Part shown: one piece after another, positions 7,216 through 61,145 of the stretch
Position numbering within the stretch: the stretch's first letter is position 1
How the letters are laid out: every line of letters begins with the position of its first letter
Source: a virus
DNA: 64,000 nt
IMG/VR virus record: IMGVR_UViG_3300013137_000011
Coordinates: 1 to 64,000 of that record
Direction: 5' to 3' (one strand)
Notes under the pieces: generated by a model
The model's input: only the letters and a program-made list of their open reading frames with translations
The model's database searches: none
What the model was told of the DNA's origin: nothing
Position numbers and translations under genes: made by a program

Positions 7216-7221
7216 AAAGAT

Positions 7222-7293: not shown

Positions 7294-7301
7294 ATAAACT
7301 A

Positions 7302-7384
7302 GCCGAGATGATGGAATGGCAGACATTTCTGACTTAAAATCAGATGGGAGATATCCCGTGCGGGTTCAAGTCCCGCTCTCGGCA
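7302..7384 (+). tRNA. tRNA-Leu(TAA)
   Basis: GCCGAGA/TCTCGGC acceptor, TCTGA-CTTAAAA-TCAGA anticodon arm, long variable arm, GGTTCAAGTCC, A73. Confidence 0.95.
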
Positions 7385-37603: not shown

Positions 37604-38950
37604 TTACGAGTGGGTTGCCCAACCAATACCAAGTGCCGTGGATCCGCTAACGATCAAGAACTGGCCCTCAGATCCAGGATCGAGGATACCAGGAACTCCA
37701 GAGGCAGAGAATCCAATAATACAGCCCTTTGCGGTTCCAATAGACTTTGCGATAAGAGTAGTAAGATCCTGATCTCCGGTGTTAACGCCAGAGGTAGAAA
37801 CCAATCCATTGAGAGCAGTATCAATCTGTGCATGAGTGTTGGTGCCAATATCAGTAAGTGAGGTATGAGATTTGGTAGTGATATCTGCAATATCACTAGT
37901 TCCCTTGTCTACATCTGCCCAAATAGGGCGAGTCTTACCGAAAGTTCCAGCAACAGCATCATAGGAACTGAAGAACTGATTGCTAGTACTAGAAGTGCTT
38001 ATCGGAGTAACCTGATCTCCAGTATTAGTACCAGAAGTCGATACCAATCTCGTAAGAGCAGTATCAATCTGTGCGTGAGTATTAGTACCAATATCAGTAA
38101 TTCCAGTATGCGAAGGTTGCGCTTTACCAAAAGTACCAGCAACAGCATCGTAGGAACTAAAAAATTGATTGGAAGTAGATGACGTACTTACAGGAGTTAC
38201 CTGATCACCAGTATTGGTACCTGAAGTAGAAATTAATCTAGTCAAAGCAGTATCAATCTGTGCATGGGTATTAGTACCGATATCAGTTAATGCTGTGTGT
38301 GATTTGGTAGTAATATCTGCGATACTACTAGTTGCCTTATCAACATTAGCCCAAGTTGGTCTAGCTTTGGTAAATGCACCAGTAACTGCATTATACTCAG
38401 TAAAGAACTGATTAGAAGTTGCAGAAGTACTTACAGGAACAACCTGATCTCCAGTATTAGTACCAGAAGTATTACTAACGACGGTTCTTTGTGCATCTGT
38501 AATATATCTTCTATTAGTAGAATCAGGAATATCTGCAGTAGTGACATCCTCATCTAACTCATGAGTAATAAGAATGGTTCCAGAATCATTCTTAACTCCA
38601 TCTAGATCCCAAGTATAATTAGGACGAAGAGTTACGTCATAAAGAACTCTCGTTCCACCAGCATCAACGATCTTAACATAGAATCTAACATTAGCAGTAT
38701 CACGATTTTCGATAAGAATGTTTTTAACTACAATCGTAATTTTTGCATTAGTAGGGGCAGGTACAATAGTAACAGGAGTAGCTCCTGCCAACTGATACGT
38801 TTTGCTCTTCTCCTCTCTAAGCGCAGTAGACTCAACCTTACCAGATTTTTCTTCATACACAACAGTACAATCTGGCTGAGTAGTAGCTGGAGCCCCAGAC
38901 ATCACTACCTGGATATATTCAGTAGTCTTTTCAAGTGCAATTTCTCTCAT
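37604..38950 (-). CDS. tail fibre-like repeat protein
   Basis: 3x DIGTNTHAQIDTAL, 4x SG[T/V]NTGDQ, Ser/Thr-rich; six [V/I]STS motifs. Confidence 0.75.
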   Translation of the reverse strand: MREIALEKTTEYIQVVMSGAPATTQPDCTVVYEEKSGKVESTALREEKSKTYQLAGATPVTIVPAPTNAKITIVVKNILIENRDTANVRFYVKIVDAGGTRVLYDVTLRPNYTWDLDGVKNDSGTILITHELDEDVTTADIPDSTNRRYITDAQRTVVSNTSGTNTGDQVVPVSTSATSNQFFTEYNAVTGAFTKARPTWANVDKATSSIADITTKSHTALTDIGTNTHAQIDTALTRLISTSGTNTGDQVTPVSTSSTSNQFFSSYDAVAGTFGKAQPSHTGITDIGTNTHAQIDTALTRLVSTSGTNTGDQVTPISTSSTSNQFFSSYDAVAGTFGKTRPIWADVDKGTSDIADITTKSHTSLTDIGTNTHAQIDTALNGLVSTSGVNTGDQDLTTLIAKSIGTAKGCIIGFSASGVPGILDPGSEGQFLIVSGSTALGIGWATHS

Positions 38951-38962
38951 TTCAATCCTCCT

Positions 38963-39058
38963 TTATCGTACTTCGAGTTGTTTCATAAATGGCTTCGCCG
39001 GACAATTAAGTTTAGTAGAAGCCTTTTTCTTTTTACTAGAAGATTTTTTTCCTGCCAT
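38963..39058 (-). CDS. 31-aa highly basic peptide, absent from the ORF track
   Basis: MAGKKSSSKKKKASTKLNCPAKPFMKQLEVR with perfect SD AAAGGAGGTGA. Confidence 0.6.
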   Translation of the reverse strand: MAGKKSSSKKKKASTKLNCPAKPFMKQLEVR

Positions 39059-39116
39059 TCATCTCACCTCCTTTGCTATTTATTAACCCTGCCACTATAT
39101 TATTTACAACCTAAAA

Positions 39117-39905
39117 CTATCTTCTCTCATCTATTAAATCAGAACTAGGATCTGGTTTAACTGATTTTATAACATAACAAAATGCATACTTAGGACCAAC
39201 TAATCCTCCTAATGTCCTGAGAAGATTTATAACTTCCTCATCATTATCAGTAAGATGTCTAGCACCATCTAATCCAGGAACACCCCAATAAGGCATAAGA
39301 TGAATTCCTTTAGCCGAATCTATATAAAAACCTGTATTAAATAACATCTCTTTAGTCTCATCATAGGTTAATTCTTTGGTATGATCTTGGCAACATTTAA
39401 AATCTCTATATCCAAGAGCCCTATTCATAATAAGATGAAGACTATTTCTATTTGGAGAAGTCAAAAGAAATATCCCATTAGGTTTAAGAACTCTAAATGC
39501 TTCAGATATCATTTTTTCTGGATTCCCAACATGTTCTAATACTTCTTTAGCAACAACTATATCAAATGTATTATCTAGAAAAATTAGATTACAAGCATCC
39601 ATTTGCATAAACTCTGCTTCAGGATATTTTTTTTCAAACTTATTCCTAGCAATTGACATAGCAACTTCAGAAATATCAGTACAAACAATACTTTTACATC
39701 CTTTATATGAATGAAGAGATCCACATCCATCACCAGATCCAAGATCAAGTATGTGTTTTCCTTCAAATGGAACGCACATTTTTCTTGCTGTAGAATCAAT
39801 ATCTATTCCACGAACTCTATCCCATAAAAATTCTTGATTGTATGGTTTACCATTAGAGTATAAATCATTCATCATATCCCTACTATTACGTTCCATTATA
39901 ACCAT
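39117..39905 (-). CDS. class I SAM-dependent methyltransferase
   Basis: ILDLGSGDG, DIS, FDIV...EVLEH, RVLKPNG...TSPN. Confidence 0.92.
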   Translation of the reverse strand: MVIMERNSRDMMNDLYSNGKPYNQEFLWDRVRGIDIDSTARKMCVPFEGKHILDLGSGDGCGSLHSYKGCKSIVCTDISEVAMSIARNKFEKKYPEAEFMQMDACNLIFLDNTFDIVVAKEVLEHVGNPEKMISEAFRVLKPNGIFLLTSPNRNSLHLIMNRALGYRDFKCCQDHTKELTYDETKEMLFNTGFYIDSAKGIHLMPYWGVPGLDGARHLTDNDEEVINLLRTLGGLVGPKYAFCYVIKSVKPDPSSDLIDERR

Positions 39906-40597
39906 CCCTCCTCTGTAATAAGATAATTTTTCATAGCATCATTATTAAACGGAATAACAAATTTCTCTTGCCCTGGTGTACCTCCCCACTTTTTAATATA
40001 ATATCTTTGAAATATATCTGCAAAGATATTCATATTAAGAGTATTTCTCATTGGATCGGATGCAATAGTTTGGCTTCCTTCATGGTGAATTGGAAGTTTT
40101 TCTGTATATATTGCATGATATCCAGCAAGTTTGGCTCTATATATCTGATCGTTATCAGAGAAGTAGTTTGGGAGGTTTGGATCTACAAGTCCAATCTTTT
40201 TTATAGCACTAATACGCCATGCTATTACATACCATCTATCTGAATAGATCCACCAATTAGGATCCTCAAATGCTTTTTCTACACGTTCCATAAATTTCTT
40301 TAAAACATCGTCGCCAAGAAAGAATATATCAGAGTGTGTCCAAAACATAACATCATCTTCATTGTCAATACACTCTTTATAATACAGATTAAAGTTATCT
40401 GTAGATGATATATGCACTTTTGGTCTAATAATCTTTGGATTGAATCCAAATATTTTTTCTGGTTCTTTAAGATCAAAATTATCAGACACATCTGTTATAA
40501 CCAGTTTGTCATAAACCTCATGAACATTATAACTCTTAACTGCTTTTATAAGTAAATCTAATCTACTTTTGTGCATTATTTTGAATGACCATTTCAT
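39896..40597 (-). CDS. GT2/GT-A fold glycosyltransferase
   Basis: HSD (DxD-like), IG..D..LPNYFSDND..YRAKLAG, HHEGSQT. Confidence 0.8.
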   Translation of the reverse strand: MKWSFKIMHKSRLDLLIKAVKSYNVHEVYDKLVITDVSDNFDLKEPEKIFGFNPKIIRPKVHISSTDNFNLYYKECIDNEDDVMFWTHSDIFFLGDDVLKKFMERVEKAFEDPNWWIYSDRWYVIAWRISAIKKIGLVDPNLPNYFSDNDQIYRAKLAGYHAIYTEKLPIHHEGSQTIASDPMRNTLNMNIFADIFQRYYIKKWGGTPGQEKFVIPFNNDAMKNYLITEEGWL

Positions 40598-40603
40598 AAT
40601 TAA

Positions 40604-41482
40604 TTACCTCCAAGACCTATTAGTAAACATTGATGGAAGATTTCCATAAAAAGTAGCAGTACCACTATCAACACTATGAACTGCATTTGTATAATGATAT
40701 CCAATTGTAGGAAGCCAAAATAGTTGTGATGTTAGTGCTATAACATAACTATTTCCACAATCCTCCTGGGTTCCATCTGGCCCATCTGCCCTATCAACTC
40801 CGATACTCCATCTAGTTGGACCAGGATTACCCCCTGTTGTTTGAACAAAAGCAGTACAATCATGTGTATTTTCAGTAATTCCTACTACAAACTCATGTTT
40901 CCAATTAGCATTACCACCATTTGCTGCTGCTGGAGTCGAAGAATTATATGTCCATGATGCAGTAGTATCTTGTTGAGATGATATAACTAATATTTTATTA
41001 TAGTAATTATGCACAAATCTTTTCGCATTAGTGTTTTGAAATTTACTTGCAGCATCAACATGAACAGTACCAATATATCTTCTGGTTGTTGCTCCAGATT
41101 TAGATAGTACTCCATCCTGATAAACTAATGCTGTTGCTCTTGTAGCAGTACTAGCCCATGCAAGTTTTTCTAACGTAGGAGTTCCATTATCATCATAACA
41201 AAATATATCATGAGGTGTATTAGCAGTAAATCCAGAATTAGATATTGACAGTTCGGTAAAATGCCTAAGATGCCAAAAAGTTCCATCATATAAAGATATA
41301 AAATCTCCTATATATGGTGTAAAATATAGAGAAGTTTTGTCTGATTCATCGGCAGATGTAACAACAGGAGAACCACTAGTTAGTGTCAATCTTCCATTAA
41401 CAGTACTATTAGTGACAATAGAAAGGACTTCTTCTTCAGTAGCCATCTCTGGATTAAGAGATTGTTTTCCAGGTTTTCCCAT
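40604..41482 (-). CDS. tail fibre/receptor-binding-like structural protein
   Basis: NGRLTLTSGSPV, LYFTPY.G, TRRYIGT, FVHNYYN: phage fibre-associated pattern. Confidence 0.6.
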   Translation of the reverse strand: MGKPGKQSLNPEMATEEEVLSIVTNSTVNGRLTLTSGSPVVTSADESDKTSLYFTPYIGDFISLYDGTFWHLRHFTELSISNSGFTANTPHDIFCYDDNGTPTLEKLAWASTATRATALVYQDGVLSKSGATTRRYIGTVHVDAASKFQNTNAKRFVHNYYNKILVISSQQDTTASWTYNSSTPAAANGGNANWKHEFVVGITENTHDCTAFVQTTGGNPGPTRWSIGVDRADGPDGTQEDCGNSYVIALTSQLFWLPTIGYHYTNAVHSVDSGTATFYGNLPSMFTNRSWR

Positions 41483-43500
41483 TACTTTTTCCTCCTTATA
41501 TCAATCCAAAGTTGATCTCCAGAGTGATGTTTGATTACTGGTTTACAATAAATAATTTCATATCCAAATACATTTGCAAGATGCTCTAAACTACTTTTGT
41601 TATAAACAATGGTATGTTCACCAACAAAAGAAGCATTTAGGTATATCCAATTATTATTTCTTTCATTCCATTTATCTGTATCTGGAGTTATAATTGAAAT
41701 TACTCCATTTTCTGTTAACAACTCTTCAAGTTTCTCGAATAGTTTTATAGGATCATGTATATGTTCAATAACATGATTCATTAATATTAAATCATACTTA
41801 TATTTATTGTCAAAGTTTTCTACTGTTTTATCATATACATTTATTTCTAATTTATCATAAGTTAGTTTATAGTTGTCTCCGGTTTCTAATCCATCTGATA
41901 TCCATCCTAACTTTTCCATTTTATCTACTATAGTTCCTGCTCCACAACCAACATCAAGAAACCTTCCTATATTTCCATAATGTTTATTAAATCTATTGTT
42001 TAACTCAACAGCCAACTCAGATTCACGTTTTCTATAATCTTTTGTAAGATAACATCCAGTATACGATTTATCGTCATAGTATTTAGAACCATCTACAATA
42101 ATATCTGTATATATTGCTTCACAGTTCTTACATCTCAAGAATTTAATGTAACTTCTCCTCATTACAAATTCACATTCAGTATCTCCACATACAGGACAAT
42201 ACTCACGATATCCAGTATATGTTTCATCTTCTATATCTTTTAACTCAACAAATGGAGTTGAATCCATTGGAACTAAATCAATAGTTTTCTGTATTTCTTT
42301 CATTATTTCATCAATTTTAAATTGTTTCATACAATGTGGATAATTTGGGATCCCTCCTGTATCTAAACATGAGTGTCCGTGCAACATGCATGGACCACAT
42401 TTATCAGTTTTTTGAATCCATCTTCCATATTTGTAATATCTCATTCTAAGATCACCATCAAAAGGACCATATAAACCTAAACAAGGTTTATCAAATGCTC
42501 CTGCAATATGAACACAACAACTATCTAGACCAACAACAAATTCACAATTCTTAATAAATAAAATAATTTCTCTAAGAATAAGTTGATCTGGAAATATGAT
42601 CTTCTTATCAATATCATCAAACACCTTACTATCAAATCCAATCTTATTTCCACATTCCTCGCATCTTACTATGGTGTAGTGTATTCTTGGTCCTACATTT
42701 AAATCAACAATCTTTCCACAAGAACTACACTTTTTTTCTTGATAATATTTATATATAGACTTATCTCCAATCATTATAACATAATATCCATACTTTTCAA
42801 CAATTTCTCTAGCCAATTGAATCATCTTCGGTATTTCAAGATTTCTTAACATAGATGACGTTTCATACTGAAGTACAACAAACTTTTCTTTATTCATATC
42901 TATTTTATATATCTTTTTAAGATTCTTCTTAAATACTTTCATCTCTTTATCTGTAACATATAATGTTGGATTTTTCTCTTCGTCACTCATTTCATTAATT
43001 GGTGCGCCGACACAATCTAAGAATATATCATAAACATTATAAAGTTGTGCAAATGGATTTAATGTTATTTCTCCGTCAAAACAGAATACCATATCATATT
43101 CATCGGTAGAAATGTTATGGTAAACTTGTTTTGTTTCTTCTATATTTAACAGAGTTAAATCTGTATTATTCATGAACACATCTGCTCCACGAGCAGAAGA
43201 AGATACTGTAATCATGCAATTTGGATATTGTTTATGAAACCATTTGATCGCAGGCGTCATAAAAAGAACATCACCAACACCACCATGATGTATAAATAAC
43301 GCAGTTTTTGGATCTTGATGTACCGATCTTTTAGTGCCAATTGGAGTTATATCTTTAAATCCAAGATGTCTAATAAAATAATTCTTCCAATATTGTTGTT
43401 CTACAAATACAATACCATTAGAAAATCTATGTTCATATGCTTTTCCTGTTGCGTTTGAAGGAAATTTTTTACTTTTATTAGAATCAAGAATCCATGTCAT
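41482..43500 (-). CDS. GT9 (heptosyltransferase-like) glycosyltransferase fused to a class I SAM methyltransferase
   Basis: GGVGDVL; GLDS..VHIAGAFDKPCLGLYGP; Zn-ribbon CxxC pairs; FLDVGCGAG; HVIEHIHDP. Confidence 0.9.
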   Translation of the reverse strand: MTWILDSNKSKKFPSNATGKAYEHRFSNGIVFVEQQYWKNYFIRHLGFKDITPIGTKRSVHQDPKTALFIHHGGVGDVLFMTPAIKWFHKQYPNCMITVSSSARGADVFMNNTDLTLLNIEETKQVYHNISTDEYDMVFCFDGEITLNPFAQLYNVYDIFLDCVGAPINEMSDEEKNPTLYVTDKEMKVFKKNLKKIYKIDMNKEKFVVLQYETSSMLRNLEIPKMIQLAREIVEKYGYYVIMIGDKSIYKYYQEKKCSSCGKIVDLNVGPRIHYTIVRCEECGNKIGFDSKVFDDIDKKIIFPDQLILREIILFIKNCEFVVGLDSCCVHIAGAFDKPCLGLYGPFDGDLRMRYYKYGRWIQKTDKCGPCMLHGHSCLDTGGIPNYPHCMKQFKIDEIMKEIQKTIDLVPMDSTPFVELKDIEDETYTGYREYCPVCGDTECEFVMRRSYIKFLRCKNCEAIYTDIIVDGSKYYDDKSYTGCYLTKDYRKRESELAVELNNRFNKHYGNIGRFLDVGCGAGTIVDKMEKLGWISDGLETGDNYKLTYDKLEINVYDKTVENFDNKYKYDLILMNHVIEHIHDPIKLFEKLEELLTENGVISIITPDTDKWNERNNNWIYLNASFVGEHTIVYNKSSLEHLANVFGYEIIYCKPVIKHHSGDQLWIDIRRKK

Positions 43501-43528
43501 TTTTATTATTCTCCTTTTATTTTATTAT

Positions 43529-43557
43529 GAGGGGATTTGAGGTTATCTCCTCCCCTC
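43529..43557 (-). promoter_or_regulatory. conserved late-operon hairpin (GAGATAA..TCAAA)
   Basis: GAGGGGA/TCCCCTC stem enclosing the shared motif. Confidence 0.55.
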
Positions 43558-43569
43558 CAACTTTCAAAA

Positions 43570-43995
43570 CTATTGGATAGTAAGAGTAAATACAGAACTA
43601 GTGCTAGGTGGGGCGGCCCCAAGAGTAAATACAACCGCATCGGTAGATGCAAAGTAAACCTGATTCATATCGGTTGCATCAGTAGCATCAGTAACATTAT
43701 CGTTACAAAAAATACCATCAACCATAGGATGAACGCCAAACGCAGTAGGAGTCAGCGTTCCAGTTGCAGTAAATACCTTATTAGTTCCATTACATAATCC
43801 ACCTGCCATACCCATCACGGATGGCTTACCAGATACTCCCGCTGCAAGATGCGAAGCCTGAATAACTCCTGCGCTGATATGACTACCAACAACGGCGTCA
43901 GCAGAGATATGGCTACCAACTACGGCGTTATCGGCAATCAGAGTACCACCAACAGAACCCGCAAGACCTCTTGCTCCTAAATCAATTCTTCCCAT
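43570..43995 (-). CDS. small virion fibre/decoration-like protein
   Basis: AVVGSHIS repeats, GTNKVFT, FTLGAAPP; GC-richer codons. Confidence 0.6.
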   Translation of the reverse strand: MGRIDLGARGLAGSVGGTLIADNAVVGSHISADAVVGSHISAGVIQASHLAAGVSGKPSVMGMAGGLCNGTNKVFTATGTLTPTAFGVHPMVDGIFCNDNVTDATDATDMNQVYFASTDAVVFTLGAAPPSTSSVFTLTIQ

Positions 43996-44016
43996 TTTGG
44001 TTTCCTCCTTTCTTAG

Positions 44017-45150
44017 TTATTTCCACCATCTTAATACTATCTTATCTCCTTCAGAGATAGAACCTAGACCGCCTATATCAAATGTAATCGATCTATCATT
44101 TGTTTCGGTATATTCATCACCAAGCCAACAAAATGAACTTTGCCATTCAACTTGCATTGAATCATCCCCAACAGTATATACGCTACTAGTGCTTACTATT
44201 CCAGATGCTGCCTGTGCAGCAGATATGATTACTCTATCACAATAATGTTGATGAGTAGCACTTGTCGATACTGTTATTATCTTTCCAGATTGTGATATAT
44301 TAGATGATCCTGCACCAATAATGGTAATATTTCCATTTATATAATCATAACCATCTGCTTTTATTCCAGTTACATCAGCAGAAGTTGAAAAATATACTGC
44401 ATCTCCTACATGAGTTATTCCTACAGAACCAAGTCCGATAAATGTAAGATCACCAGTTATTTCATCTCCATCTACATTAATTGACTGGACACCTGCAGAT
44501 GTTGAAACTTCGTTTATTTGAGTGTATAACCAATCAAGAGTGTCCTCTAATGTTGAGGTTCCTGAAGTTGATACAATATTAGGATCGTAATAATCTAATT
44601 TTCCAGTAGTTATTCCTGCGTCTGTTGCTACATGACGATTTCTAATTGTTAATCCAGAAATTGAGTCGATTGTGAGAAGGGGACCGTCTTGGGCCGTCCC
44701 TGTGTGTTTATGTCCACTAGAGGCGTCAAAGGAGCCATATATGGAGGAGAGATATGCCTTTACCGTGGCGAATGTATACTGAGGATCCGTTCCAAGGGTT
44801 GACTGAATTTGTGAAATCGCATCCTGAAGTTGGTTAATGTCATCAGCAACAATGTAATCGCCATCACAAAGAATAGTTATTCCTACAGTAGAATTAGCAC
44901 TAGATGAATTAAACACTATTTCATTGTTTTCATAATCTATATAAAACCTATCAGATAACGTAGGAGGATTACTTGACGTTGAAATATAACCTGGTATTGT
45001 AACAACTGAAGATGTAGAAACACTATGATGTAAATGTACTATAAAATCTGTTGCTGGAATAACATAAGAATCGGTAACGGCTGTTCCACCATCAATCTTA
45101 TTCACTCTATTATAGAATATATCTAATGTACCTGGAAATAATGATAACAT
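44017..45150 (-). CDS. tail tip/fibre-associated structural protein
   Basis: ADDINQLQDAI..IQ.TLG.DP, GHKHTG; seven [V/I/F]STS motifs. Confidence 0.7.
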   Translation of the reverse strand: MLSLFPGTLDIFYNRVNKIDGGTAVTDSYVIPATDFIVHLHHSVSTSSVVTIPGYISTSSNPPTLSDRFYIDYENNEIVFNSSSANSTVGITILCDGDYIVADDINQLQDAISQIQSTLGTDPQYTFATVKAYLSSIYGSFDASSGHKHTGTAQDGPLLTIDSISGLTIRNRHVATDAGITTGKLDYYDPNIVSTSGTSTLEDTLDWLYTQINEVSTSAGVQSINVDGDEITGDLTFIGLGSVGITHVGDAVYFSTSADVTGIKADGYDYINGNITIIGAGSSNISQSGKIITVSTSATHQHYCDRVIISAAQAASGIVSTSSVYTVGDDSMQVEWQSSFCWLGDEYTETNDRSITFDIGGLGSISEGDKIVLRWWK

Positions 45151-45164
45151 TTGTTCACCTTCTT

Positions 45165-45665: not shown

Positions 45666-45667
45666 CG

Positions 45668-50842: not shown

Positions 50843-50843
50843 T

Positions 50844-51257
50844 TTATGGTTCCTTGCATACTAAGAATGTTATTCTTGTTTTAAAGGCCCATGATCCATC
50901 ATTAAACTTAGCATTTTCCCAATCTATGTTTAGACCCTGTTTTCCAGGATGAAACCTAACAACTCTAGAATATCCATTCCAATTTGTATAAGTCCATTGA
51001 TACATAAGTTTTCTAGCATCTCTTAGATCATAAGCATAATTTTCTTTTAACCATGTTTCAATAGTAAGTTCCCTATCACACTCATGAAATCCAAAGGTTT
51101 GAAGAATTCTTTTTCCACCAATAGTATCTTCTATTTCATATCTTTCTTCATCTTCAAATAGATTTGTTGGATGTGGTTCAAGGTTAAACATAAAAGATGA
51201 AGAACTTATTCTTGTGAAAGTATACGAACCGTTATATCTTACTAGTTTTGATTTCAT
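50844..51257 (-). CDS. distal tail (Dit-like) protein
   Basis: Directly follows the tape measure; TIGG..ILQ.FG...RELTI pattern. Confidence 0.55.
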   Translation of the reverse strand: MKSKLVRYNGSYTFTRISSSSFMFNLEPHPTNLFEDEERYEIEDTIGGKRILQTFGFHECDRELTIETWLKENYAYDLRDARKLMYQWTYTNWNGYSRVVRFHPGKQGLNIDWENAKFNDGSWAFKTRITFLVCKEP

Positions 51258-54200: not shown

Positions 54201-57200
54201 CAGCTACTTGTATTTAAATCTTTCCAATCTGGCACATTGGATAATTTTCCAGAAAGTTTATTATATTTTTTACTATATCCAGTTCTAGTATCAATAATAT
54301 CATATAATCCTGCAACAGACATTACTCCAATATCTAAAGATGGAATACCTTGCTTTTCTGCAAGTAATAGTGATGCAGTTAGTTTTCTATGTTTCATTAA
54401 TATCTTTTTATTAGTTTCTAAATCATCTCCAAATAGATTAAGATAACTTTCTTGACCAGAAACAAGTTTTTTATATTTTTCTACAGCATCTTCTGCTTGA
54501 TCTATAGATTTCTTAGCTAGACCAATTATCTCATTGGATAATGGTTCCATTTCTGTAGCAAAAGGTTCTCCAAATAGTGTTTTTAATAATTTAGACCATT
54601 CTTGTAATTTTTTTTCTCTTTCTGGACCAGAAACAGATGCAACATCTTTAAATATCTCATCTGTCTTAGACATTAAAGTGTTCATCCTTTCTGGAGTTAG
54701 GAACTGAAGTTTGTGTTTCCACTTATCTTTTAGTTCTTCTCTAACATTTTTTGATTCATCAAAACTCTTCTGAGGATCTGTTTTTGGAGCCATTCCCAAA
54801 TCTCCATAAAATCCTAATGAAGTCAATATATGACCCCAACCTTTTTTAACAGAATCATCATATTCTAGTGGATTTGTATCATAATTATTTAATTTCTCAA
54901 TTTCAAATTTAAATCTACTTCTTTGAGATTCTATTCTATCAGTAAGACCTATTGAAATAACCTTTTTTAGATTAATTAACTGCCTAAGTTCCTTTTCTGC
55001 TACATTTTCTTCTTGATAATTAGAAATACTCATTTTATATTTTTCGTATAGAATTAGAATATTTTTTAGTTTATTTATATCAGGATCAAATACACTAGTT
55101 GTATTTTCGACTGGAGCAATCATTCTCTCAATATATTTTCTAGTTATATTTGGAATAGTTGATATACTTTTTCCGGCATTTTGATCTCCAGTAGATTTAT
55201 ATAAATCTCTATAAAACTCTCCGCCACCAATATATCCAATTGATGTCTCAAATGCACGTTTAGAAACATTAGACTGTGCTATTTTTTGTTTTAAATCTTC
55301 TTCAAGTTTATCCTGGTTATCTTTATACCATTTTAATGCGGCAGAAGCAATAATACCAACAGAAATACCTACTGCAGGATTTAATACTGTTAATAATCCA
55401 CTAGCAATTCCTATTTTTGCTCCTGCACCTGCATCTCCTGTATATGCTGCTGCACCTATTCCCGCTAAAGCACCAACACCAAACATTCTGCTTCCTGCTC
55501 CAGGAAGTAATGTGCTTGGATATATATTTGAATTACCTGGATTAAATCCACCACTATAACCATATCCAGGTCTCTTTAAAAAATTATATATAGTTTCATC
55601 TTGTCCTAATATCTTATTTTTGGCCCAACCACCCATACTCCACAGAGCAGCAGAACCTCCCATAGCAACTATTGATTCAACTCCACCTGTAACGACACCT
55701 CCAATTCCAGGAGATCCTTGTGCTGCTTGCTTTAATCCAGTAAATAAATCAATACCCGCTTTTGCTATTTTTCCAATATCCTTAACTAATGGCTCTGCTA
55801 TTTCAATACCAAACTTGCCCATCTCATTAGAAAGAATCTTCCATTGATCTATAATATTATTAGTCATTACCTCAAATTGGCGTTGACCATCATTCATAGC
55901 CTTCTGCTTGTTAATTGCTTCATCAAAATCCGCTTTAGTATATCTCATCAATATTCTTCCAGCAGCGGAAGTTCTTTGTTCAAAGATATCTCCAAGATAC
56001 TTTTCTTGTTTTCCAGTTGGAAGTTTAGAAAGTCCTTCTTTAAGTCTATTTAATTTATCATAAAGACTTACAGCAGATCCATCTTCATTCATCATTTCTA
56101 TTCCCATATCCTTGAAAGCCTTTTGTGCTTCCTTAGATGGATCTGCAAGTCTCTTGATAACACCTCTCAATCTCTCACCCATATCAGTTCCACGAATACC
56201 TGCATCTGCTAGTTTCATCATCATTCCAAGAGTATCTTCAAATCCAAGACCTGACTCATTAGCAACAACACCTGCATATTTCATCGCTTCTGCAAGTTTA
56301 GGAATCTCTGTAGCAGATTTTGCTGCAGCATAAGAAAGCCCATCGAGAACTCTTTGAGATTCATCAGCACCCATATTAAACTGCTTCATTATAACAGCAA
56401 GATGAACTGCTGCTTCAGATGAATCATACATTCCTAAAGTAGCAAGTTTATTGGCATTTTCAGCATTTTTGATACTTGCAGCAACATCAAGATATCCATC
56501 CTTTGATTGACCTAATCCAGTAGAAACAATATGATACATAGTTTCTGCTGTCTGTGCAGACGAGAATACTGATTTATCCATATCAAGTATTCCCTTTTTA
56601 AGTAACTGCATCTGATCTCTACCATGTGCAGTTATTGATGCAACCCTAGTTAATCCCTTTTCAAATTGCGATTCTGCTTCAAATGCACGTTTAAATGCAT
56701 CGGCAACACCATATAGAACTGCTCCAGTAGCAACCCATTCAAGATGGCGTTTAACCATCCATCCCATTTCATTCGACCATTCTTTAGACTGTTCTCTACG
56801 AAGACCAATCTTTTCCTGACGAGTCATATCTTCTTTAGATATCTCGCCACGAAGAATCTGTTCTTTTCTTAATTGATCGTAAGACTCTTTTCTTTTACGA
56901 ATTTGTTCATTTTCTAATCCTATTGTACTACGAATATTATTAAGATCATTTTCATATTGTTCATTAGTAAAATTATACAAAGTATAACCTGTATATTTTT
57001 TTGTAGTCCAATTATTACCTTTATTTTCTTTTGGATCATATATATCTGGATCTTTAAGTCTAATACCAAGTTCTTGTGCTATTTTATGAACTTCTTGTCT
57101 AATTCTACTTACAGGGATATAATTATTATCTTGAGTTGTATTTAAATAAAATGGAAATTGTCTTGAAAGAGATTCGCTTCTTGCTCCAAAAACTTTATTT

Positions 57201-58594
57201 AAATATTCTTGTGTTCTAGGTGCTTGACGTTCATTTAATAGTTCAACATCTTTATCAAACATATGTCTTCTATTAGGAGCAAACCTAATTCTTCTTATAG
57301 TAGCATTTCTGGTATTTCTATCAACTACTCTACTACTATAATTATTTAATAAATCATTTTTTAAACTACTTAATTCTTCTTTCGATAGTTTCCTATTAGG
57401 ATCTCCAACAACACTACCAACTATATTTTCTGGACCTCCTGCAGTTCCAGCATATCTTCTATTTTGAATAATTGCTTGTTTTGTTAATGCAATCTGTTCT
57501 TTAATTGATTTATCCTCAAACTGCATCATTTGATACATTTCTTGTGATTCATTATGCATTTTCAACAAATAGTTTAGTTTTTGTTGTCTAAATTCATTCA
57601 TTAATTCTTTCATTAATGATGAAACACTAGAACCTTTTATTGATCCTTGTGTTATACCAAACTCTTTTTGTAGTTGTGCTATGTCGTTCTTTGAAAATAT
57701 TGCATCTGATATTTGAGTTGGTTGATTTCTAAGATCCTGAAATATTTTTCTAGACAAATCTATTACGCCAGTTTTTTCATCAAAACCACGACCAACATAA
57801 TTTCCAATTAAACTAATAATTGATCCTGGAAGTTTAGTTTCTCTTCCGCTAGGACCACTAGAAGATAATTTTCCTCCACCTGCCATAAGATGTGGAGTAT
57901 TAATAATTCCTTGTATTGTTTGATTTGCTTGATTCACCCTATCAACACTAGCAACAAGAGACTTCTCCAAGTCACTTAAACCCTTTACTCCTTTCTGTCC
58001 CTTCATGCTACTAATTAATTCTCTTAACGCACCCAACTCCCCAATTTCACCCATAGAACCTTGATTAAATAAAGGTTTAATACTTAATGACTGTAAATGA
58101 TCATTTATTTTCTTTACAGTATCAACTCTAGTTACATTGTTGTTTTTAATTATTTCTTCCATTGTTTGTTTAACAGATGCATTATATGCTCTTACATCTT
58201 GTGAAACAACATTCTGGAAATTCTGATTATTAGTACCAGACAAAGCACCAGCAAGACGTTGAATTTCTTCTCGTTGCGCTTTCATTCTGTGCAACATATT
58301 AGATGATTGCACAGTTATATTTCTCATCCTATCAACAAGTTGCTCTTCTGATTTTATGGCTGCTCTCTGTATTTCATTATATGCTTTATAAGAACCACCA
58401 AGTTTATTTAGTATTTCTGCTTGTTTTAAGAATGAGTTATTATAAGAATCAATTGCTTTCTGTCCCTGATAAATAGAGGGAGCCCATTTAGCCATGGCTC
58501 CCTGCACATCGTTAACCAATTTACCAATAACTTGAAATTTATCAAGTCCAGAAGTTTCGCAAGCAATTCTAATGATGTTATTTATTTCTGACAT
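51254..58594 (-). CDS. tail tape measure protein (TP901-family core)
   Basis: 2446 aa, helical; FEKGLTRV, FSSAQTAE, LAEAMKYAG.VA...G, LADAGIRGTDMG..LR. Confidence 0.93.
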   Translation of the reverse strand: MSEINNIIRIACETSGLDKFQVIGKLVNDVQGAMAKWAPSIYQGQKAIDSYNNSFLKQAEILNKLGGSYKAYNEIQRAAIKSEEQLVDRMRNITVQSSNMLHRMKAQREEIQRLAGALSGTNNQNFQNVVSQDVRAYNASVKQTMEEIIKNNNVTRVDTVKKINDHLQSLSIKPLFNQGSMGEIGELGALRELISSMKGQKGVKGLSDLEKSLVASVDRVNQANQTIQGIINTPHLMAGGGKLSSSGPSGRETKLPGSIISLIGNYVGRGFDEKTGVIDLSRKIFQDLRNQPTQISDAIFSKNDIAQLQKEFGITQGSIKGSSVSSLMKELMNEFRQQKLNYLLKMHNESQEMYQMMQFEDKSIKEQIALTKQAIIQNRRYAGTAGGPENIVGSVVGDPNRKLSKEELSSLKNDLLNNYSSRVVDRNTRNATIRRIRFAPNRRHMFDKDVELLNERQAPRTQEYLNKVFGARSESLSRQFPFYLNTTQDNNYIPVSRIRQEVHKIAQELGIRLKDPDIYDPKENKGNNWTTKKYTGYTLYNFTNEQYENDLNNIRSTIGLENEQIRKRKESYDQLRKEQILRGEISKEDMTRQEKIGLRREQSKEWSNEMGWMVKRHLEWVATGAVLYGVADAFKRAFEAESQFEKGLTRVASITAHGRDQMQLLKKGILDMDKSVFSSAQTAETMYHIVSTGLGQSKDGYLDVAASIKNAENANKLATLGMYDSSEAAVHLAVIMKQFNMGADESQRVLDGLSYAAAKSATEIPKLAEAMKYAGVVANESGLGFEDTLGMMMKLADAGIRGTDMGERLRGVIKRLADPSKEAQKAFKDMGIEMMNEDGSAVSLYDKLNRLKEGLSKLPTGKQEKYLGDIFEQRTSAAGRILMRYTKADFDEAINKQKAMNDGQRQFEVMTNNIIDQWKILSNEMGKFGIEIAEPLVKDIGKIAKAGIDLFTGLKQAAQGSPGIGGVVTGGVESIVAMGGSAALWSMGGWAKNKILGQDETIYNFLKRPGYGYSGGFNPGNSNIYPSTLLPGAGSRMFGVGALAGIGAAAYTGDAGAGAKIGIASGLLTVLNPAVGISVGIIASAALKWYKDNQDKLEEDLKQKIAQSNVSKRAFETSIGYIGGGEFYRDLYKSTGDQNAGKSISTIPNITRKYIERMIAPVENTTSVFDPDINKLKNILILYEKYKMSISNYQEENVAEKELRQLINLKKVISIGLTDRIESQRSRFKFEIEKLNNYDTNPLEYDDSVKKGWGHILTSLGFYGDLGMAPKTDPQKSFDESKNVREELKDKWKHKLQFLTPERMNTLMSKTDEIFKDVASVSGPEREKKLQEWSKLLKTLFGEPFATEMEPLSNEIIGLAKKSIDQAEDAVEKYKKLVSGQESYLNLFGDDLETNKKILMKHRKLTASLLLAEKQGIPSLDIGVMSVAGLYDIIDTRTGYSKKYNKLSGKLSNVPDWKDLNTSSWFTSNIQSGSGFNLEYSSQNNKYRRQFDNIRKRRFEVDEFNKSSNEQIDKVSKQLYRDLKNYGAYDSVKIFSGPKVIEELTRKYEKDATSITKEETQILSLSQKKKQLEKQRIDINKKFSIERIESLHNMALEMNNDIENSRNTLDSDISQLFPSYENKKKSIKDSTKKQLDWFNILNKDINDSLNIAKDAKLKEKDPEKIKVLDAAIKTFQKELKLIPGLIKDLNLTETAKLFMIETSRMLELKQYRSIISSIGLRLSGRGPEADHISSLGSLQNTYETSRRQAYNEKDTNKLKMLAVEYYYNLRELNHTFSKQKIDEENNLKELKARNIIEEYRLRGQYADAEYKSKTIQNQKSFDDEMFTAKDNLIKQNEIRKFYARAFGQDYKVYISNLQSETNTLNASAVATRLRLIGKTLRADIIETVMQIRADKDRILSSLDPESDAYKKNKKIYEGKEELAVKDHKERIYAIQYAIETATKQLNAKLSGRYLYGEHYKNIREIISSGYQQVQNAGGPDTPMGKEAAANVKNELELEARRFKEEYSKVYNDMYMSIMQNRFALTKQEISAEYNLQYHSLKNEYNDRMRLHYGDIELRLLIEKDFSTKVYMLWKSIYARIYDTRFKSMQEGMGIFVSTSQSYAQRTGQDQRGSLVGSRFGLYTSKYKAMNDPSIDPWMRPFYYAQIKEEEDRIAIQERQMGVGGERETRLRNNLKILESKKLKTSRDFEQIKLYRSELGKIQSGGSGQVLSGDEQKRVKGWIDYLPYMKNQIAEKQDKIDERHKFLFNWQRSMVERGVGANSPEGQAYAKQIQIYNRMKSDRDRVNGPDSDMTRGIAELKKLALRADSKTQDIIAKLIAELSMKTEKIQSVSIDAITGSAKADLEEMMKKYDIGKFNVDEYFKKYLQDWAKDNGIRLKGDENKQEEVKPQEHPLKNSGPDIYHIDASIYLDGEKIAEQIAKAEINKINKYCQDQDKRKNAVSGGAK

Positions 58595-59563: not shown

Positions 59564-59587
59564 AATATCCTCCTAGTTTTTTATTAC

Positions 59588-59618
59588 GACGAGGGTTTGA
59601 AATTATCTCGCCCTCGTC
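59588..59618 (-). promoter_or_regulatory. conserved late-operon hairpin (GAGATAA..TCAAA)
   Basis: GACGAGGG/CCCTCGTC stem enclosing the shared motif. Confidence 0.55.
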
Positions 59619-59631
59619 ACAGATTCCATAC

Positions 59632-60426
59632 TTACAGAGCAGACTGGACCGCAGTACCGATGATAACAGTAGAACCAATATCAAGTCCGTGGAAAATCAC
59701 ACAGCCCTTTGCTCCAATGGCCTCTGCATCATCATAAGGCAGGAACTCGTAAGAAGGATCTGCGGTAACACCGTCATCTCCCTCTCTATCGGTGATGTCG
59801 ATATAATCAGTTCCTGCACCCTTATATCTAACATAAGCAATCGCAGAAGATTCATAAGTGCTACTAAACTGACTATCAGCACCGGCATGTGCCGTGCTAG
59901 AAGTAGTTCCAGCAGTATGATAAACCTTTCCTGCGAAAGTTCTTACTTCATCACATCTACCAGAAATCGTAAGCATAGTGGCGGCGCCAGTAGAATTAGT
60001 ATTGCCCTTATTATCCGCTTTACAATTTCTAAGATACTCAGTAGTAATAACCTTAGCAGTTCCTCTGCGAAGTTCAGATTCCGAAGCCTCTGGATGGCAG
60101 TACTCCTGTTGAAAATCAACGGGAAAACTATTAGCGATATTGAAATAGTTGTTAGCACTACTCGAAATATTGCCCCATCTCTGAAGATCGGCAAGATCCG
60201 TGAGTCTAAAATTACCACTCCAATTATATGAATTTCCCTGAGTCAGATACTTGGTTTTGAGAGATCCCTGCTCGGGACAATCAATCGAAGAACCTGCTTC
60301 ATTATTAGTAAGACTCTCTTTATGATAGAGTCTCTTAGTGGTTCCAGAATTAGGATCGACCGCCTTAGTGATGATATGGCTACCACCAATTCCAGGTACA
60401 TCGGTAAACTCGTTAGTTGCGCCCAT
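59632..60426 (-). CDS. major tail (tube) protein
   Basis: Synteny before the chaperone; GC-richer codons; small-residue-rich. Confidence 0.7.
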   Translation of the reverse strand: MGATNEFTDVPGIGGSHIITKAVDPNSGTTKRLYHKESLTNNEAGSSIDCPEQGSLKTKYLTQGNSYNWSGNFRLTDLADLQRWGNISSSANNYFNIANSFPVDFQQEYCHPEASESELRRGTAKVITTEYLRNCKADNKGNTNSTGAATMLTISGRCDEVRTFAGKVYHTAGTTSSTAHAGADSQFSSTYESSAIAYVRYKGAGTDYIDITDREGDDGVTADPSYEFLPYDDAEAIGAKGCVIFHGLDIGSTVIIGTAVQSAL

Positions 60427-60440
60427 TTATTTCCCTCCTT

Positions 60441-61145
60441 TCATTCGATATCATCAGGCAGTTTAACTTTTATAACCGCCGAACCTTCCATCCCATTTGC
60501 GAACCTTCCTGAATCTTCAATTCTATCTATTTTGACTCTACCAACTGTGATTATTCCGCTCGTAGAAATGGCAGGAGAGACTGAATAATCCTTTAGTTTG
60601 ATGTTAGAAGAAAGTGCTGATTTCAATTCTTCCTTGATTCCATCTCTTTGTGAGACATCGAAACTTCCATTCTTCCTAACATCTGCATAAAAACCAATCG
60701 ATAGAATCTTTGTATCCTCTACAGTACTTTTTCCCTGATCATACTCCTGATCTATTTCAGAATCTATTTCAAACCACACCGCAGGCGTGGAAACTTGCTC
60801 TTTGTCTATTTGATTAAATGTTTCTTGCCACGATAACATCAATACTGGTTTATATTGATATTCAATTTCTACATTTTGACTAGAATTTGATGCATTAAAT
60901 TGTAAGTTTGTGCTATTACCTTTTCCACCATAATTTATTACTGTATATTGATTGACCTGTGGATTTGAACTTACTCTTGTAAATCCATCTATATTATCAC
61001 TTCCAGAAATTACTCTATTCTTTAATAATGTTTTGGAAGTACTTATGCTAAATGGATTTTCAGAATAATTTCTAGTAGATAAGTATAAATCAATGTGATC
61101 ATAAATGGATCTTATTATATTATCTGCGTGTTGTTGTCTATTCAT
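60441..61145 (-). CDS. tail terminator/completion protein
   Basis: Synteny; TPAVWFE pattern; two ISTS motifs. Confidence 0.55.
   Translation of the reverse strand: MNRQQHADNIIRSIYDHIDLYLSTRNYSENPFSISTSKTLLKNRVISGSDNIDGFTRVSSNPQVNQYTVINYGGKGNSTNLQFNASNSSQNVEIEYQYKPVLMLSWQETFNQIDKEQVSTPAVWFEIDSEIDQEYDQGKSTVEDTKILSIGFYADVRKNGSFDVSQRDGIKEELKSALSSNIKLKDYSVSPAISTSGIITVGRVKIDRIEDSGRFANGMEGSAVIKVKLPDDIE

What the first reader, a model, noticed from the sequence alone, without database searches (positions are those of the whole stretch)
37604..61145. Recurrent [V/I/F]-S-T-S-[G/S/A] peptide motif concentrated in virion proteins: candidate sequon for phage-encoded protein modification
Seen: 18 copies of [V/I/F]STS on the virion arm. 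There are 7 in the 377-aa protein 44017-45150, 6 in fibre 37604-38950, 2 in 45668-47560, 2 in the tail terminator 60441-61145 and 1 in the tape measure, plus PSTS in 43570-43995. Of the 18, 15 are followed by G, S or A. I found only one among plausible genes of the 36-kb early arm (ORF 34427). In 44017-45150 the copies sit in unrelated contexts and use varied codons (TCT-ACA-TCT, TCA-ACG-TCA, TCA-ACT-TCA, TCA-ACA-TCT, TCA-ACT-TCT, TCG-ACA-AGT, AGC-ACT-AGT), so the constraint acts on the peptide and is not a DNA repeat. Inference: it is the acceptor site for the glycosyltransferases encoded between these genes, forming an enzyme-plus-sequon system that coats the virion with glycans. I know of no defined sequon for phage virion glycosylation.
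Basis: partly seen in the sequence, partly recalled or inferred. Interest (0 to 1): 0.92.

Follow-up and report, generated by a model that had tools for sequence, protein, structure and literature searches.

The report
Ser-Thr-Ser tag on phage fibre proteins
An uncultured lake-water phage carries the short peptide Val/Ile-Ser-Thr-Ser about ten to twenty times too often in its fibre and tail proteins, next to its own sugar-transferase genes, so the peptide may mark where the phage attaches sugars to its particle, but no chemistry has been done.

Summary
There are 18 [V/I/F]STS copies on the window's virion arm, 19 counting one just beyond it, and 16 of the 19 are followed by G, S or A. Composition predicts about 1 and dipeptide-preserving shuffles about 2. 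The early arm has 1 copy against 0.43 expected. STS and VSTS are the top 3-mer and 4-mer in an unbiased scan. Only S-T-S among the eight hydroxyl triplets is enriched, and codons vary.

Caveats: about 9 of the 19 copies come from tandem duplication in the fibre and p377. An exact 4-mer shared by 3–4 proteins is common in other phage loci. With the motif defined on fibre plus p377, the remaining late proteins still show 6 against 0.8–1.0 (p≈1.5e-4).

The motif is specific to this lineage. Relatives of the same fibre module carry x-N-T-S-G and A-N-E-A-G at those sites (0 of 177 with STS). Three p377-family proteins each keep 4–7 copies at partly different positions.

Three glycosyltransferases (GT2-like, GT9–methyltransferase fusion, GT4), a further methyltransferase and a pyruvyl transferase sit in or beside the late operon.

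The sequon reading is plausible (about 0.4) but unproven. The capsid protein lacks the motif, and cultured phages with the homologous GT4/GT2 pair lack it too. The scan has flagged similar motif-plus-GT candidates, with other motifs, on other phage DNA.

The parts
37604..38950 (-). Tail-fibre protein (448 aa) with 3-4 tandem units of a widespread fibre module. It has six motif copies at 38420-38434, 38219-38233, 38177-38191, 38030-38044, 37988-38002 and 37787-37801.
   Evidence: There are 703 module homologues. Site A (before TNTGDQ) and site B (before TSNQFF) carry [VI]STS here but x-N-T-S-G and A-N-E-A-G in relatives.
39117..39905 (-). SAM-dependent class I methyltransferase (262 aa), no motif
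   Evidence: (Methyltransf_11, E 2e-22)
39896..40597 (-). GT2-like (GT-A fold) glycosyltransferase (233 aa), no motif
   Evidence: phrog_29879, E 5.5e-9. (Atlas score 0.99, TM 0.85 to GT2 clusters of Bacillota and phages). (homologues next to the GT4 in S-CBS4 and phiPsal1).
40604..41482 (-). S/T-rich 292-aa protein of unknown function between the two GT genes. It has no STS at all.
41482..43500 (-). Fusion protein of 672 aa: a GT9-fold glycosyltransferase (about residues 60-420, with Cys4 clusters at 258-283 and 368-390), a zinc-ribbon-like Cys cluster at 435-460, and a SAM methyltransferase (505-650). It is the candidate initiating enzyme.
   Evidence: PF01075 30.9 bits against cut-off 22; Methyltransf_23 E 4e-20. 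(RfaQ model over residues 68-348). (viral GT9 clusters, TM 0.65)..
43570..43995 (-). Small tail-fibre-like protein (141 aa) with PSTSS at 43594-43608
   Evidence: (phrog_892 tail fiber, E 1.7e-4)
44017..45150 (-). p377, a fibre-type virion protein with a confident N-terminal anchor domain. It has seven motif copies at 45007-45021, 44971-44985, 44560-44574, 44494-44508, 44377-44391, 44257-44271 and 44182-44196.
45668..47560 (-). 630-aa late protein of unknown function with ISTSG (47375-47389) and ISTSC (45896-45910)
   Evidence: no family hit
51254..58594 (-). 2446-aa probable tape measure protein with one VSTSQ (52295-52309)
   Evidence: The role is inferred from size and position only.
60441..61145 (-). 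234-aa late protein of unknown role with ISTSK (61032-61046) and ISTSG (60555-60569)
   Evidence: no family hit
35761..36798 (+). CsaB-like polysaccharide pyruvyl transferase, the last gene of the early arm, facing the late operon
   Evidence: PF04230, E 2e-29; TIGR03609 CsaB, E 1.6e-22
34427..34690 (+). The only early-arm ORF with a copy (ISTSS at residue 40), consistent with background
   Evidence: early arm 1 observed against 0.43 expected

Best explanation
[V/I]-S-T-S-[G/S/A] is a short peptide selected at the protein level and specific to this phage lineage. It sits on the fibre-type and some other late proteins, mostly at helix ends and in loops. It is most likely the recognition and acceptor site of a phage-encoded cytoplasmic O-glycosylation pathway that decorates fibre proteins before assembly. 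Proposed order: the lineage-specific GT9-methyltransferase fusion (41482-43500) puts the first sugar on a Ser or Thr of the motif. The GT2-like enzyme (39896-40597) and the head-module GT4 (genome 68256-69524) extend the glycan. The two methyltransferase domains and the CsaB-like pyruvyl transferase tailor it. Shown: the enrichment, its specificity, its peptide-level nature, its restriction to this lineage, the site turnover among relatives, and the identity and position of the enzymes. Inferred: that the enzymes act on virion proteins, that the motif is their acceptor, and which enzyme initiates.
For: (1) Enrichment is 19 against 1-2 expected and survives local and dipeptide-preserving shuffles. 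A hold-out test on proteins not used to define the motif gives 6 against 0.77-0.98. (2) Specificity is sharp. Of the eight hydroxyl triplets after V/I/F only S-T-S is enriched (19 against 1.04; the others 0-2, SSS 5). The preceding residue is V or I in 18 of 23 STS and never L, A or Y. (3) Codons vary, including both serine codon classes. (4) It is not a folding requirement of the fibre module. 0 of 164 site-A and 0 of 13 site-B instances in homologues have STS, and the fibre itself keeps one ancestral VSNTSG unit. 67 unrelated phage loci with the same module show 46 against 30.7, with no protein above one copy. (5) Sites turn over while copy number stays high: p377 has 7, P0002 has 4, and P0123 has 5 plus TSTSG, at partly different positions. 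(6) Three GTs, two methyltransferase domains and a pyruvyl transferase lie in or beside the late operon, three of them between the fibre genes. None has a strong membrane segment and none carries the motif. (7) The GT4 and GT2-like enzymes have homologues side by side in the head modules of phages of cyanobacteria and actinobacteria, which argues for a phage-intrinsic substrate. (8) In the usable parts of the models the motifs lie after beta-bridges in coil, at helix C-termini or in loops, with one in a strand. (9) Precedents: mycobacteriophages glycosylate capsid and tail tube proteins with their own GTs (PMC12363180, citing Freeman 2023). GT9-family TibC O-heptosylates serines of an autotransporter in the cytoplasm (PMC4358343). 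SASSAS is described as a signature motif of glycosylated Lactobacillaceae S-layer proteins (PMC10221546).
Against: There are no chemical data. The capsid protein, most tail proteins and two very S/T-rich neighbours (40604-41482 and 45165-45665) have no copy, so any glycosylation through this motif would be selective and would not form a coat. About 9 of 19 copies are duplication products. S-CBS4 and phiPsal1 carry the homologous GT4/GT2-like pair but show no STS excess (1 against 1.07; 1 against 0.25). The one panel phage with GT9 genes shows none either. The GT9 domain has no detectable similarity to the protein-modifying TibC. In relatives both fibre sites read x-N-x-x-G, and N to S is a conservative swap between side-chain-capped turns, so a structural reading is possible. 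Calibration: the best exact 4-mer in S-CBS4 reaches p 3e-6, and a 4-mer shared by four proteins occurs in 4 of 59 panel loci. The C-terminal half of p377 and most of the fibre are modelled at low confidence.
Confidence: 0.4

Rival explanations
1. It is a structural capping or turn element with no modification. The hydrophobic residue anchors the chain and S-T-S-G forms side-chain-capped turns or helix C-caps. The lineage reuses this solution, tandem duplication multiplies it, and the GT cluster works on something else, such as a host envelope polymer or another phage product.
For: Four of the 13 copies in the two modelled proteins (p377 215; fibre 240, 303 and 384) sit at the C-terminal end of a predicted helix. 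In relatives both fibre sites read x-N-x-x-G, and N and S can form equivalent capped turns (the turn equivalence is my own knowledge). P0123 carries the motif in a regular 14-residue unit between short helical segments. About half of the copies are duplication products. The blocks around the motif are the best conserved parts of p377 and P0002. The pyruvyl transferase is CsaB-like, a family that acts on cell-wall polymers.
Against: A general structural solution should appear in other phages. 177 homologous module sites, 67 + 7 panel loci and two cultured phages show none. The fibre tolerates the ancestral N-T-S-G in one unit. S-to-T swaps, which a structural role should tolerate, are absent. 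Single copies in unrelated proteins remain six-fold or more over expectation. Sites turn over between relatives.
Confidence: 0.3
2. It is a recognition site for another trans-acting factor: a different modification of Ser or Thr, a fibre assembly chaperone, or a contact made by the fibres with a host surface component.
For: The lineage specificity, sharp sequence definition and site turnover point to recognition by some lineage-specific partner but do not say which. Most late genes have no known family.
Against: No kinase, chaperone or other candidate was identified. The only recognisable enzymes beside the motif-bearing genes are sugar enzymes and methyltransferases.
Confidence: 0.15
3. It is a historical accident. 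Duplication within two fibre genes, exchange of short segments between them and a few chance copies elsewhere together give an apparent motif with no function of its own.
For: 13 of 19 copies are in two proteins. VSTSGT and VSTSAT are shared between the fibre and p377. Multi-protein 4-mers are common in phage loci, and top 4-mers reach p~1e-6 elsewhere.
Against: Hold-out enrichment is p~1.5e-4 by Poisson, with 0 of 2000 dipeptide shuffles reaching it. Serine codon classes differ between copies, which argues against recent DNA exchange. p377's copies show no DNA repeat. The motif was gained independently at two non-homologous module sites and in the unrelated C-terminal part of P0123.
Confidence: 0.1

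Closest known systems
Mycobacteriophage virion glycosylation (Che8, Corndog, Myrna; Freeman et al. 2023, known here through PMC12363180)
   Same: Phage-encoded glycosyltransferases that modify the phage's own structural proteins inside the infected cell.
   Different: There the capsid and tail tube proteins are modified and the chemistry was shown. Here the candidates are fibre-type proteins, the enzyme set differs (GT9-MTase, GT2-like, GT4, pyruvyl transferase) and nothing has been shown. The summary I could read reports no short sequon. The original paper is not held.
Bacterial autotransporter heptosyltransferases (TibC, AAH; GT9 family; PMC4358343)
   Same: A GT9-fold enzyme working in the cytoplasm that O-glycosylates many serines on a repetitive, elongated surface protein. 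A four-cysteine metal site follows the sugar-nucleotide-binding lobe.
   Different: There is no detectable sequence similarity to TibC. The matches are to LPS heptosyltransferase models, and I did not establish whether those carry such a Cys cluster, so it is not diagnostic. The phage protein has extra zinc-ribbon inserts and a fused methyltransferase. Its oligomeric state and donor sugar are unknown.
Chlorovirus capsid glycosylation machinery (B736L GT4, PDB 3oy2; the PBCV-1 A064R GT-GT-methyltransferase fusion, from my own knowledge)
   Same: Virus-encoded cytoplasmic glycosylation of a virion protein. B736L, a chlorovirus NY-2A GT4 (virus and family from my own knowledge), is the best solved relative of this phage's GT4. 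A GT fused to a sugar methyltransferase is the same design.
   Different: It is a eukaryotic algal virus with N-linked glycans on the major capsid protein. Similarity is weak (E 1e-4).
Short serine-rich motifs of Gram-positive surface glycoproteins (SASSAS in Lactobacillaceae S-layer proteins, PMC10221546; serine-rich repeat adhesins with GtfA/GtfB, from my own knowledge)
   Same: A short hydroxyl-rich peptide that recurs in glycosylated surface proteins.
   Different: These are cellular proteins, not phage proteins. The motifs and enzymes differ, and no homology was tested.
GT4 + GT2-like (+ methyltransferase) cassette in head modules of Synechococcus phage S-CBS4 and Pontimonas phage phiPsal1
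   Same: Homologues of this phage's GT4 (22-26% identity) and GT2-like enzyme (32-34% over 76-91 residues) lie side by side among the portal, capsid and neck genes.
   Different: Here the pair is split between the head and fibre modules and joined by a GT9-MTase fusion. Those phages have no STS excess. Their cassette has no known function in the records.

Membership tests
Glycosyltransferase family 9 (Pfam PF01075) - the 672-aa protein | Score above the curated Pfam threshold | tested here: met
   30.9 bits against a cut-off of 22.
Glycosyltransferase family 9 (Pfam PF01075) - the 672-aa protein | Both GT-B lobes recognisable | tested here: met
   the RfaQ model aligns over residues 68-348; both lobes align to GT9-like chains. 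TM 0.65 over residues 2-421 to a viral GT9 cluster.
Bacterial autotransporter heptosyltransferases (BAHT: TibC/AAH) | Detectable homology to TibC/AAH beyond the general GT9 fold | tested here: not met
   no TibC chain among PDB sequences even at E<=10. Only WaaC, WaaF and PnsB1 appear.
Bacterial autotransporter heptosyltransferases (BAHT: TibC/AAH) | Four-cysteine iron finger inserted in the C-lobe | tested here: inconclusive
   C368, C371, C378 and C390 follow the C-lobe motif, with spacing loosely like TibC's Cys339/342/358/370 (PMC4358343). The heptosyltransferase II model also aligns across this stretch, so it may be a general GT9 feature.
Bacterial autotransporter heptosyltransferases (BAHT: TibC/AAH) | Dodecameric ring | not testable with these tools
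   Needs biochemistry or a structure.
Bacterial autotransporter heptosyltransferases (BAHT: TibC/AAH) | O-heptosylation of a protein substrate | not testable with these tools
   Needs an activity assay and mass spectrometry.
Phage virion glycosylation system (mycobacteriophage type) | Phage-encoded GT genes associated with the structural genes | tested here: met
   the GT2-like and GT9-MTase genes lie between fibre genes. The GT4 lies between a 476-aa and a 513-aa ORF that I take, by position only, to be portal and terminase.
Phage virion glycosylation system (mycobacteriophage type) | Glycans demonstrated on virion proteins | not testable with these tools
   The phage is uncultured. No RNA or protein data are available.
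Phage virion glycosylation system (mycobacteriophage type) | Homology of the GTs to Che8 gp110 or Corndog gp38 | not tested
   tblastn of the GT4 against the phage collection returned no mycobacteriophage. No direct comparison was made.
Glycosylation sequon (acceptor motif) | Statistical excess of the motif in the substrate class and not elsewhere | tested here: met
Glycosylation sequon (acceptor motif) | Motif co-occurs with the enzyme across related genomes | tested here: inconclusive
Distant relatives lack both motif and enzymes. Phages with the GT4/GT2 pair lack the motif.
Glycosylation sequon (acceptor motif) | Motif accessible on the folded protein | tested here: inconclusive
   the copies lie in coil, at helix ends or, for one copy, in a strand. 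Solvent exposure was not computed, and more than half of the residues are modelled at low confidence.
Glycosylation sequon (acceptor motif) | Site-mapped modification on the motif | not testable with these tools
   Needs mass spectrometry.

The most novel reading that the evidence does not exclude
The phage runs a sequon-directed O-glycosylation system for its fibres. A phage-specific GT9-methyltransferase fusion recognises [V/I]-S-T-S-[G/S/A] and starts a methylated, pyruvylated glycan that a widely shared GT4/GT2-like pair extends. This would be the first defined acceptor peptide for phage virion glycosylation and the first protein-directed GT9 enzyme outside the autotransporter heptosyltransferases.
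Probability: 0.33. Interest if true: 0.8.

Novelty: new variant of a known kind. Interest (0 to 1): 0.55.

Why it matters
Among tailed phages, the only demonstrated case of virion glycosylation that I found is in mycobacteriophages, where it shields particles from antibodies. The searches I ran of the held papers found no short acceptor peptide for any phage. A sharply defined pentapeptide with a small set of candidate enzymes in one operon makes the question testable by co-expression in a laboratory host, even though this phage is uncultured. If true, it would give a portable tag-and-enzyme pair for decorating proteins. It would also show that fibres, the host-recognition organs, can be glycan-modified, and it would assign a function to the many phage-encoded GT9 and GT4/GT2 genes that sit among morphogenesis genes. 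If false, it is a clean example of a lineage-specific structural motif that mimics a sequon, which would help in judging the many similar candidates this scan has produced.

Tried and rejected
Relatives with gene context:
- megablast of the late arm against phages: no match.
- The search for related loci with the capsid protein, the GT9-MTase, the p377 alignment and the 746-aa tail protein in viral contigs: none.
- The 746-aa alignment in metagenome contigs: none.
- The p377 family in genome contigs: one 3-kb Lachnospiraceae MAG contig.
- The p377 family in metagenome contigs: seven distant loci with no motif excess and no enzyme homologues.

Other checks that led nowhere:
- GT9-bearing panel phage G020: unrelated, 66% GC, no STS signal.
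- Natural variation: the phage is in six lake-water runs. Laid contigs are near-identical low-coverage fragments with two SNPs outside motifs, so no test of constraint was possible. No RNA holder is listed.
- Fold of p377: no confident PDB match. Viral models give only fibre and anchor-domain resemblances.
- The fibre model is mostly low confidence.
- tblastn of the GT9-MTase against phages: none. p377 gives only two weak Bacillus jumbo-phage hits.
- The Freeman 2023 paper is not held. Literature searches for fibre glycosylation or a phage sequon found nothing relevant.

Considered and rejected:
- A DNA-level repeat or site: codons vary.
- S/T-rich composition or local patches: local and dipeptide shuffles exclude it.
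- A general property of the fibre module: excluded.

No complex prediction was run, because an enzyme with its substrate is a poor case for that tool.

Full report
**What the window is.** The window is the first 64 kb of a single 78.8-kb phage contig of about 32% G+C. A + strand early arm (1-36.8 kb) encodes an SNF2 helicase, an AEP primase, RuvB-like and Rad52-like proteins and a sliding-clamp-like protein. A - strand late arm starts at 37.3 kb. The late arm holds fibre genes, a 2446-aa probable tape measure, and, beyond the window, the capsid gene plus ORFs that by position may be portal and terminase. Most structural proteins have no Pfam or PHROG family, and the phage has no close relative in the phage or viral-contig collections. 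Its DNA is present in six lake-water metagenome runs.

**The observation.**
- Six [V/I/F]STS copies lie in the fibre 37604-38950 and seven in the 377-aa protein 44017-45150 (p377).
- Two lie in 45668-47560, two in 60441-61145 and one in the tape measure.
- PSTSS occurs in 43570-43995.
- 15 of the 18 are followed by G, S or A.
- A single ISTSS lies in the early arm (34427-34690).
- A nineteenth copy (VSTSS) lies just beyond the window, in the 182-aa protein next to the capsid gene.
- Codons differ from copy to copy and use both AGY and TCN serine codons, so the constraint acts on the peptide.

**Is it more than chance?** In 34 late proteins (11.9k residues) composition predicts 1.0 copies and dipeptide-preserving shuffles predict 2.0. 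None of 2000-3000 shuffles reached 19, including shuffles confined to 10-40 residue windows that preserve local S/T-rich patches. An unbiased scan of all k-mers puts STS first among 3-mers (23 against 5.7) and VSTS first among 4-mers (11 against 0.33). The early arm has 1 against 0.43 expected, and the six late enzymes have none.

The motif is narrowly defined. Of the eight Ser/Thr triplets after V/I/F only S-T-S is enriched (19 against 1.04). The others occur 0-2 times, and SSS 5 times. The residue before STS is V (11) or I (7) and never L, A or Y.

**Necessary discounts.**
- The fibre's six copies lie in three to four tandem units that are 75-80% identical at the DNA level, so they represent two independent sites.
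- Three of p377's copies (215, 254, 294) head successive ~40-residue protein repeats.
- With the fibre removed and p377's repeats collapsed the count is 11 against about 0.9. For [VI]STS alone it is 11 against 0.68, Poisson 2e-10.
- In real phage loci an exact 4-mer shared by four proteins occurs in 4 of 59 cases and one shared by three proteins in 50 of 59. The best 4-mer in the structural proteome of cyanophage S-CBS4 reaches p 3e-6. Spread over several proteins, or one exact 4-mer, would therefore not be remarkable alone.
- The cleanest test avoids look-elsewhere effects. The motif is defined on the fibre and p377 and counted in all other late proteins. That gives 6 against 0.77 (Poisson 1.5e-4), or 0.98 under dipeptide shuffles with 0 of 2000 reaching 6.

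I conclude that the enrichment is real.

**Lineage specificity.** The fibre's repeat unit is a widespread module, with 703 hits in the protein collection, many carrying collar, collagen or S74 chaperone domains. In these homologues the position before TNTGDQ (site A) reads mostly [G/A/S]-N-T-S-G. The position before the NNF(L/F) hairpin (site B) reads A-N-E-A-G or similar. None of 164 site-A and none of 13 site-B instances contains STS. This phage has [VI]STS in 3 of 4 site-A units and 3 of 3 site-B units, and it keeps one ancestral VSNTSG unit. So the module folds without the motif.

67 viral loci that share the module show 46 copies against 30.7 expected, with no protein holding more than one. 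Seven distant relatives of p377 on metagenome contigs show no excess and have no homologues of the enzymes nearby.

**Relatives of p377.** A full HMMER search found 44 relatives, nearly all sharing only the N-terminal domain.
- The closest, P0002 (59% identity), keeps the copies at 56, 193, 215 and 254. It has ISSSS at 44, lacks the copy at 319 and lacks one repeat.
- P0123 (37% identity) keeps ISTS at 56 and 254, lacks those at 44, 193 and 215, and has three further ISTSN plus a TSTSG in 14-residue tandem units in an otherwise different C-terminal part. That is 5 copies against 0.13 expected.

High copy number with partly different positions in three relatives is how modification sites usually behave, more than core structural residues. 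Whether they carry the enzymes therefore could not be tested.

**The enzymes.**
- Between the fibre gene and p377 lie a SAM methyltransferase (39117-39905), a GT2-like GT-A enzyme (39896-40597) and an S/T-rich protein of unknown function with no STS (40604-41482).
- Next comes a 672-aa fusion of a complete GT9-fold glycosyltransferase with a SAM methyltransferase (41482-43500).
- The fusion carries three four-cysteine clusters, at residues 258-283, 368-390 and 435-460.
- A CsaB-like pyruvyl transferase ends the early arm (35761-36798).
- A GT4 enzyme lies in the head module beyond the window (genome 68256-69524). Its best solved relative is B736L, a chlorovirus GT4 by my own knowledge.
- None of these proteins has a strongly hydrophobic segment.

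The GT4 and the GT2-like enzyme have homologues lying side by side, next to a methyltransferase, inside the head modules of Synechococcus phage S-CBS4 (portal-x-GT4-GT2like-MTase) and Pontimonas phage phiPsal1 (capsid-GT4-MTase-GT2-neck). A cassette kept among morphogenesis genes by phages of cyanobacteria, actinobacteria and this low-G+C lake phage points to a phage-intrinsic substrate more than a host-specific wall polymer. That is an inference.

Those two phages show no STS excess (1 against 1.07; 1 against 0.25). If the motif is a sequon, its specificity must come from another enzyme, and the lineage-specific GT9-methyltransferase fusion is the obvious candidate. GT9 enzymes that glycosylate proteins exist: TibC and AAH O-heptosylate serines of autotransporters in the cytoplasm (PMC4358343). 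However, the phage protein shows no similarity to TibC beyond the fold. Its Cys cluster after the C-lobe is also covered by the heptosyltransferase II model, so it is not diagnostic.

**Structural context.** With 43 aligned relatives, p377's N-terminal domain (1-140) is modelled at pLDDT above 90. The copies at 44 and 56 each begin at a beta-bridge and continue in coil. The copy at 215 ends a helix, the copy at 254 lies in a strand, and the rest fall in low-confidence regions. The domain resembles the anchor domains of T7-type tail fibres, head fibres and decoration proteins.

The fibre model is poor overall but usable for residues 170-240. Site A lies at the C-terminal end of the H-A-Q-I-D-T-A-L helix, and site B lies in coil just before a beta-hairpin. 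It also fits a helix-cap or turn role, especially since N-to-S is a conservative exchange between side-chain-capped turns (my own knowledge).

**Verdict.** My best reading, at about 0.4, is that the motif is an acceptor or recognition site for phage-encoded O-glycosylation of fibre-type proteins. In this reading the GT9-methyltransferase is the initiating enzyme, the GT2-like and GT4 enzymes extend the glycan, and the methyltransferases and pyruvyl transferase tailor it.

The main rival, at about 0.3, is a lineage-specific structural cap or turn multiplied by duplication, with the enzymes serving another purpose. Recognition by some other factor (about 0.15) and historical accident (about 0.1) remain possible.

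The claim that the system coats the virion is not supported. The capsid protein and most tail proteins have no copy, and 13 of 19 copies sit in two fibre proteins.

The scan has recorded similar motif-plus-glycosyltransferase candidates, with different motifs, on other phage DNA. Those are unverified notes and do not count as support here. They do argue for caution, because short Ser/Thr/Gly words are often somewhat enriched in fibrous virion proteins.

Noticed in passing
window 42652-42729, 42331-42399, 42121-42198 (- strand; residues 258-283, 368-390, 435-460 of the 672-aa GT9-MTase): There are three four-cysteine clusters. A CxxC-18-CxxC zinc-ribbon-like insert lies between the GT9 lobes. 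A CxxC-6-C-11-C cluster follows the sugar-nucleotide motif, roughly where TibC has its iron finger. A third, CxxC...C...CxxC, precedes the methyltransferase domain.
   Followed up: partly
genome 68256-69524 (L001:5256-6524, -) and window 39896-40597; L085:4917-6738; L084:6979-9351: This phage's GT4 and GT2-like enzymes have homologues lying side by side with a methyltransferase inside the head modules of Synechococcus phage S-CBS4 and Pontimonas phage phiPsal1. This looks like a conserved morphogenesis-linked sugar-enzyme cassette of unknown function across host phyla.
   Followed up: partly
fibre-module homologues P0004-P0122: The widespread fibre module has a near-invariant [I/L]-x-N-T-S-G-T-N-T-G-D-Q signature, found 164 times in 119 proteins. 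It contains two N-x-S/T triplets. No Pfam family matched the module in this phage's fibre.
   Followed up: no
P0123 residues 290-345: A relative of p377 carries four tandem 14-residue units of the form [I/T]-S-T-S-[N/G]-H-[L/I]-S-x-I-D-x-x-L. This is a two-heptad period with the motif at each unit boundary.
   Followed up: no
window 51254-58594 (-): A single ORF of 2446 aa lies in the tape-measure position. If it is a tape measure, the tail would be exceptionally long.
   Followed up: no
window 15125-16285 (+): A Rad52/22-like protein has a weak, sub-threshold match of its C-terminal part to the TET-associated glycosyltransferase family (E 4e-4, 20.9 bits against cut-off 27.5). This is a faint hint of DNA modification enzymes.
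   Followed up: no
window 7221-7384 (+): Two adjacent tRNA genes, tRNA-Gln(UUG) and tRNA-Leu(UAA), lie in the early arm.
   Followed up: no
window 37604-45150: The same phage sequence is present, nearly identical, in six lake-water metagenome runs from six studies of 2020. The two SNPs seen (44207 G>A, 45073 G>T) lie outside motifs.
   Followed up: partly
L085 (Synechococcus phage S-CBS4 structural genes): The 4-mer SPLS occurs five times in five different structural proteins against 0.22 expected. It was noted only as a calibration of how far chance or unknown constraints can push a 4-mer.
   Followed up: no
window 40604-41482 and 45165-45665 (-): Two very Ser/Thr-rich late proteins (13% T in one, 17.5% S in the other) lie beside the enzymes and p377 yet contain no STS at all. 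This shows that the motif is not a by-product of S/T richness.
   Followed up: partly
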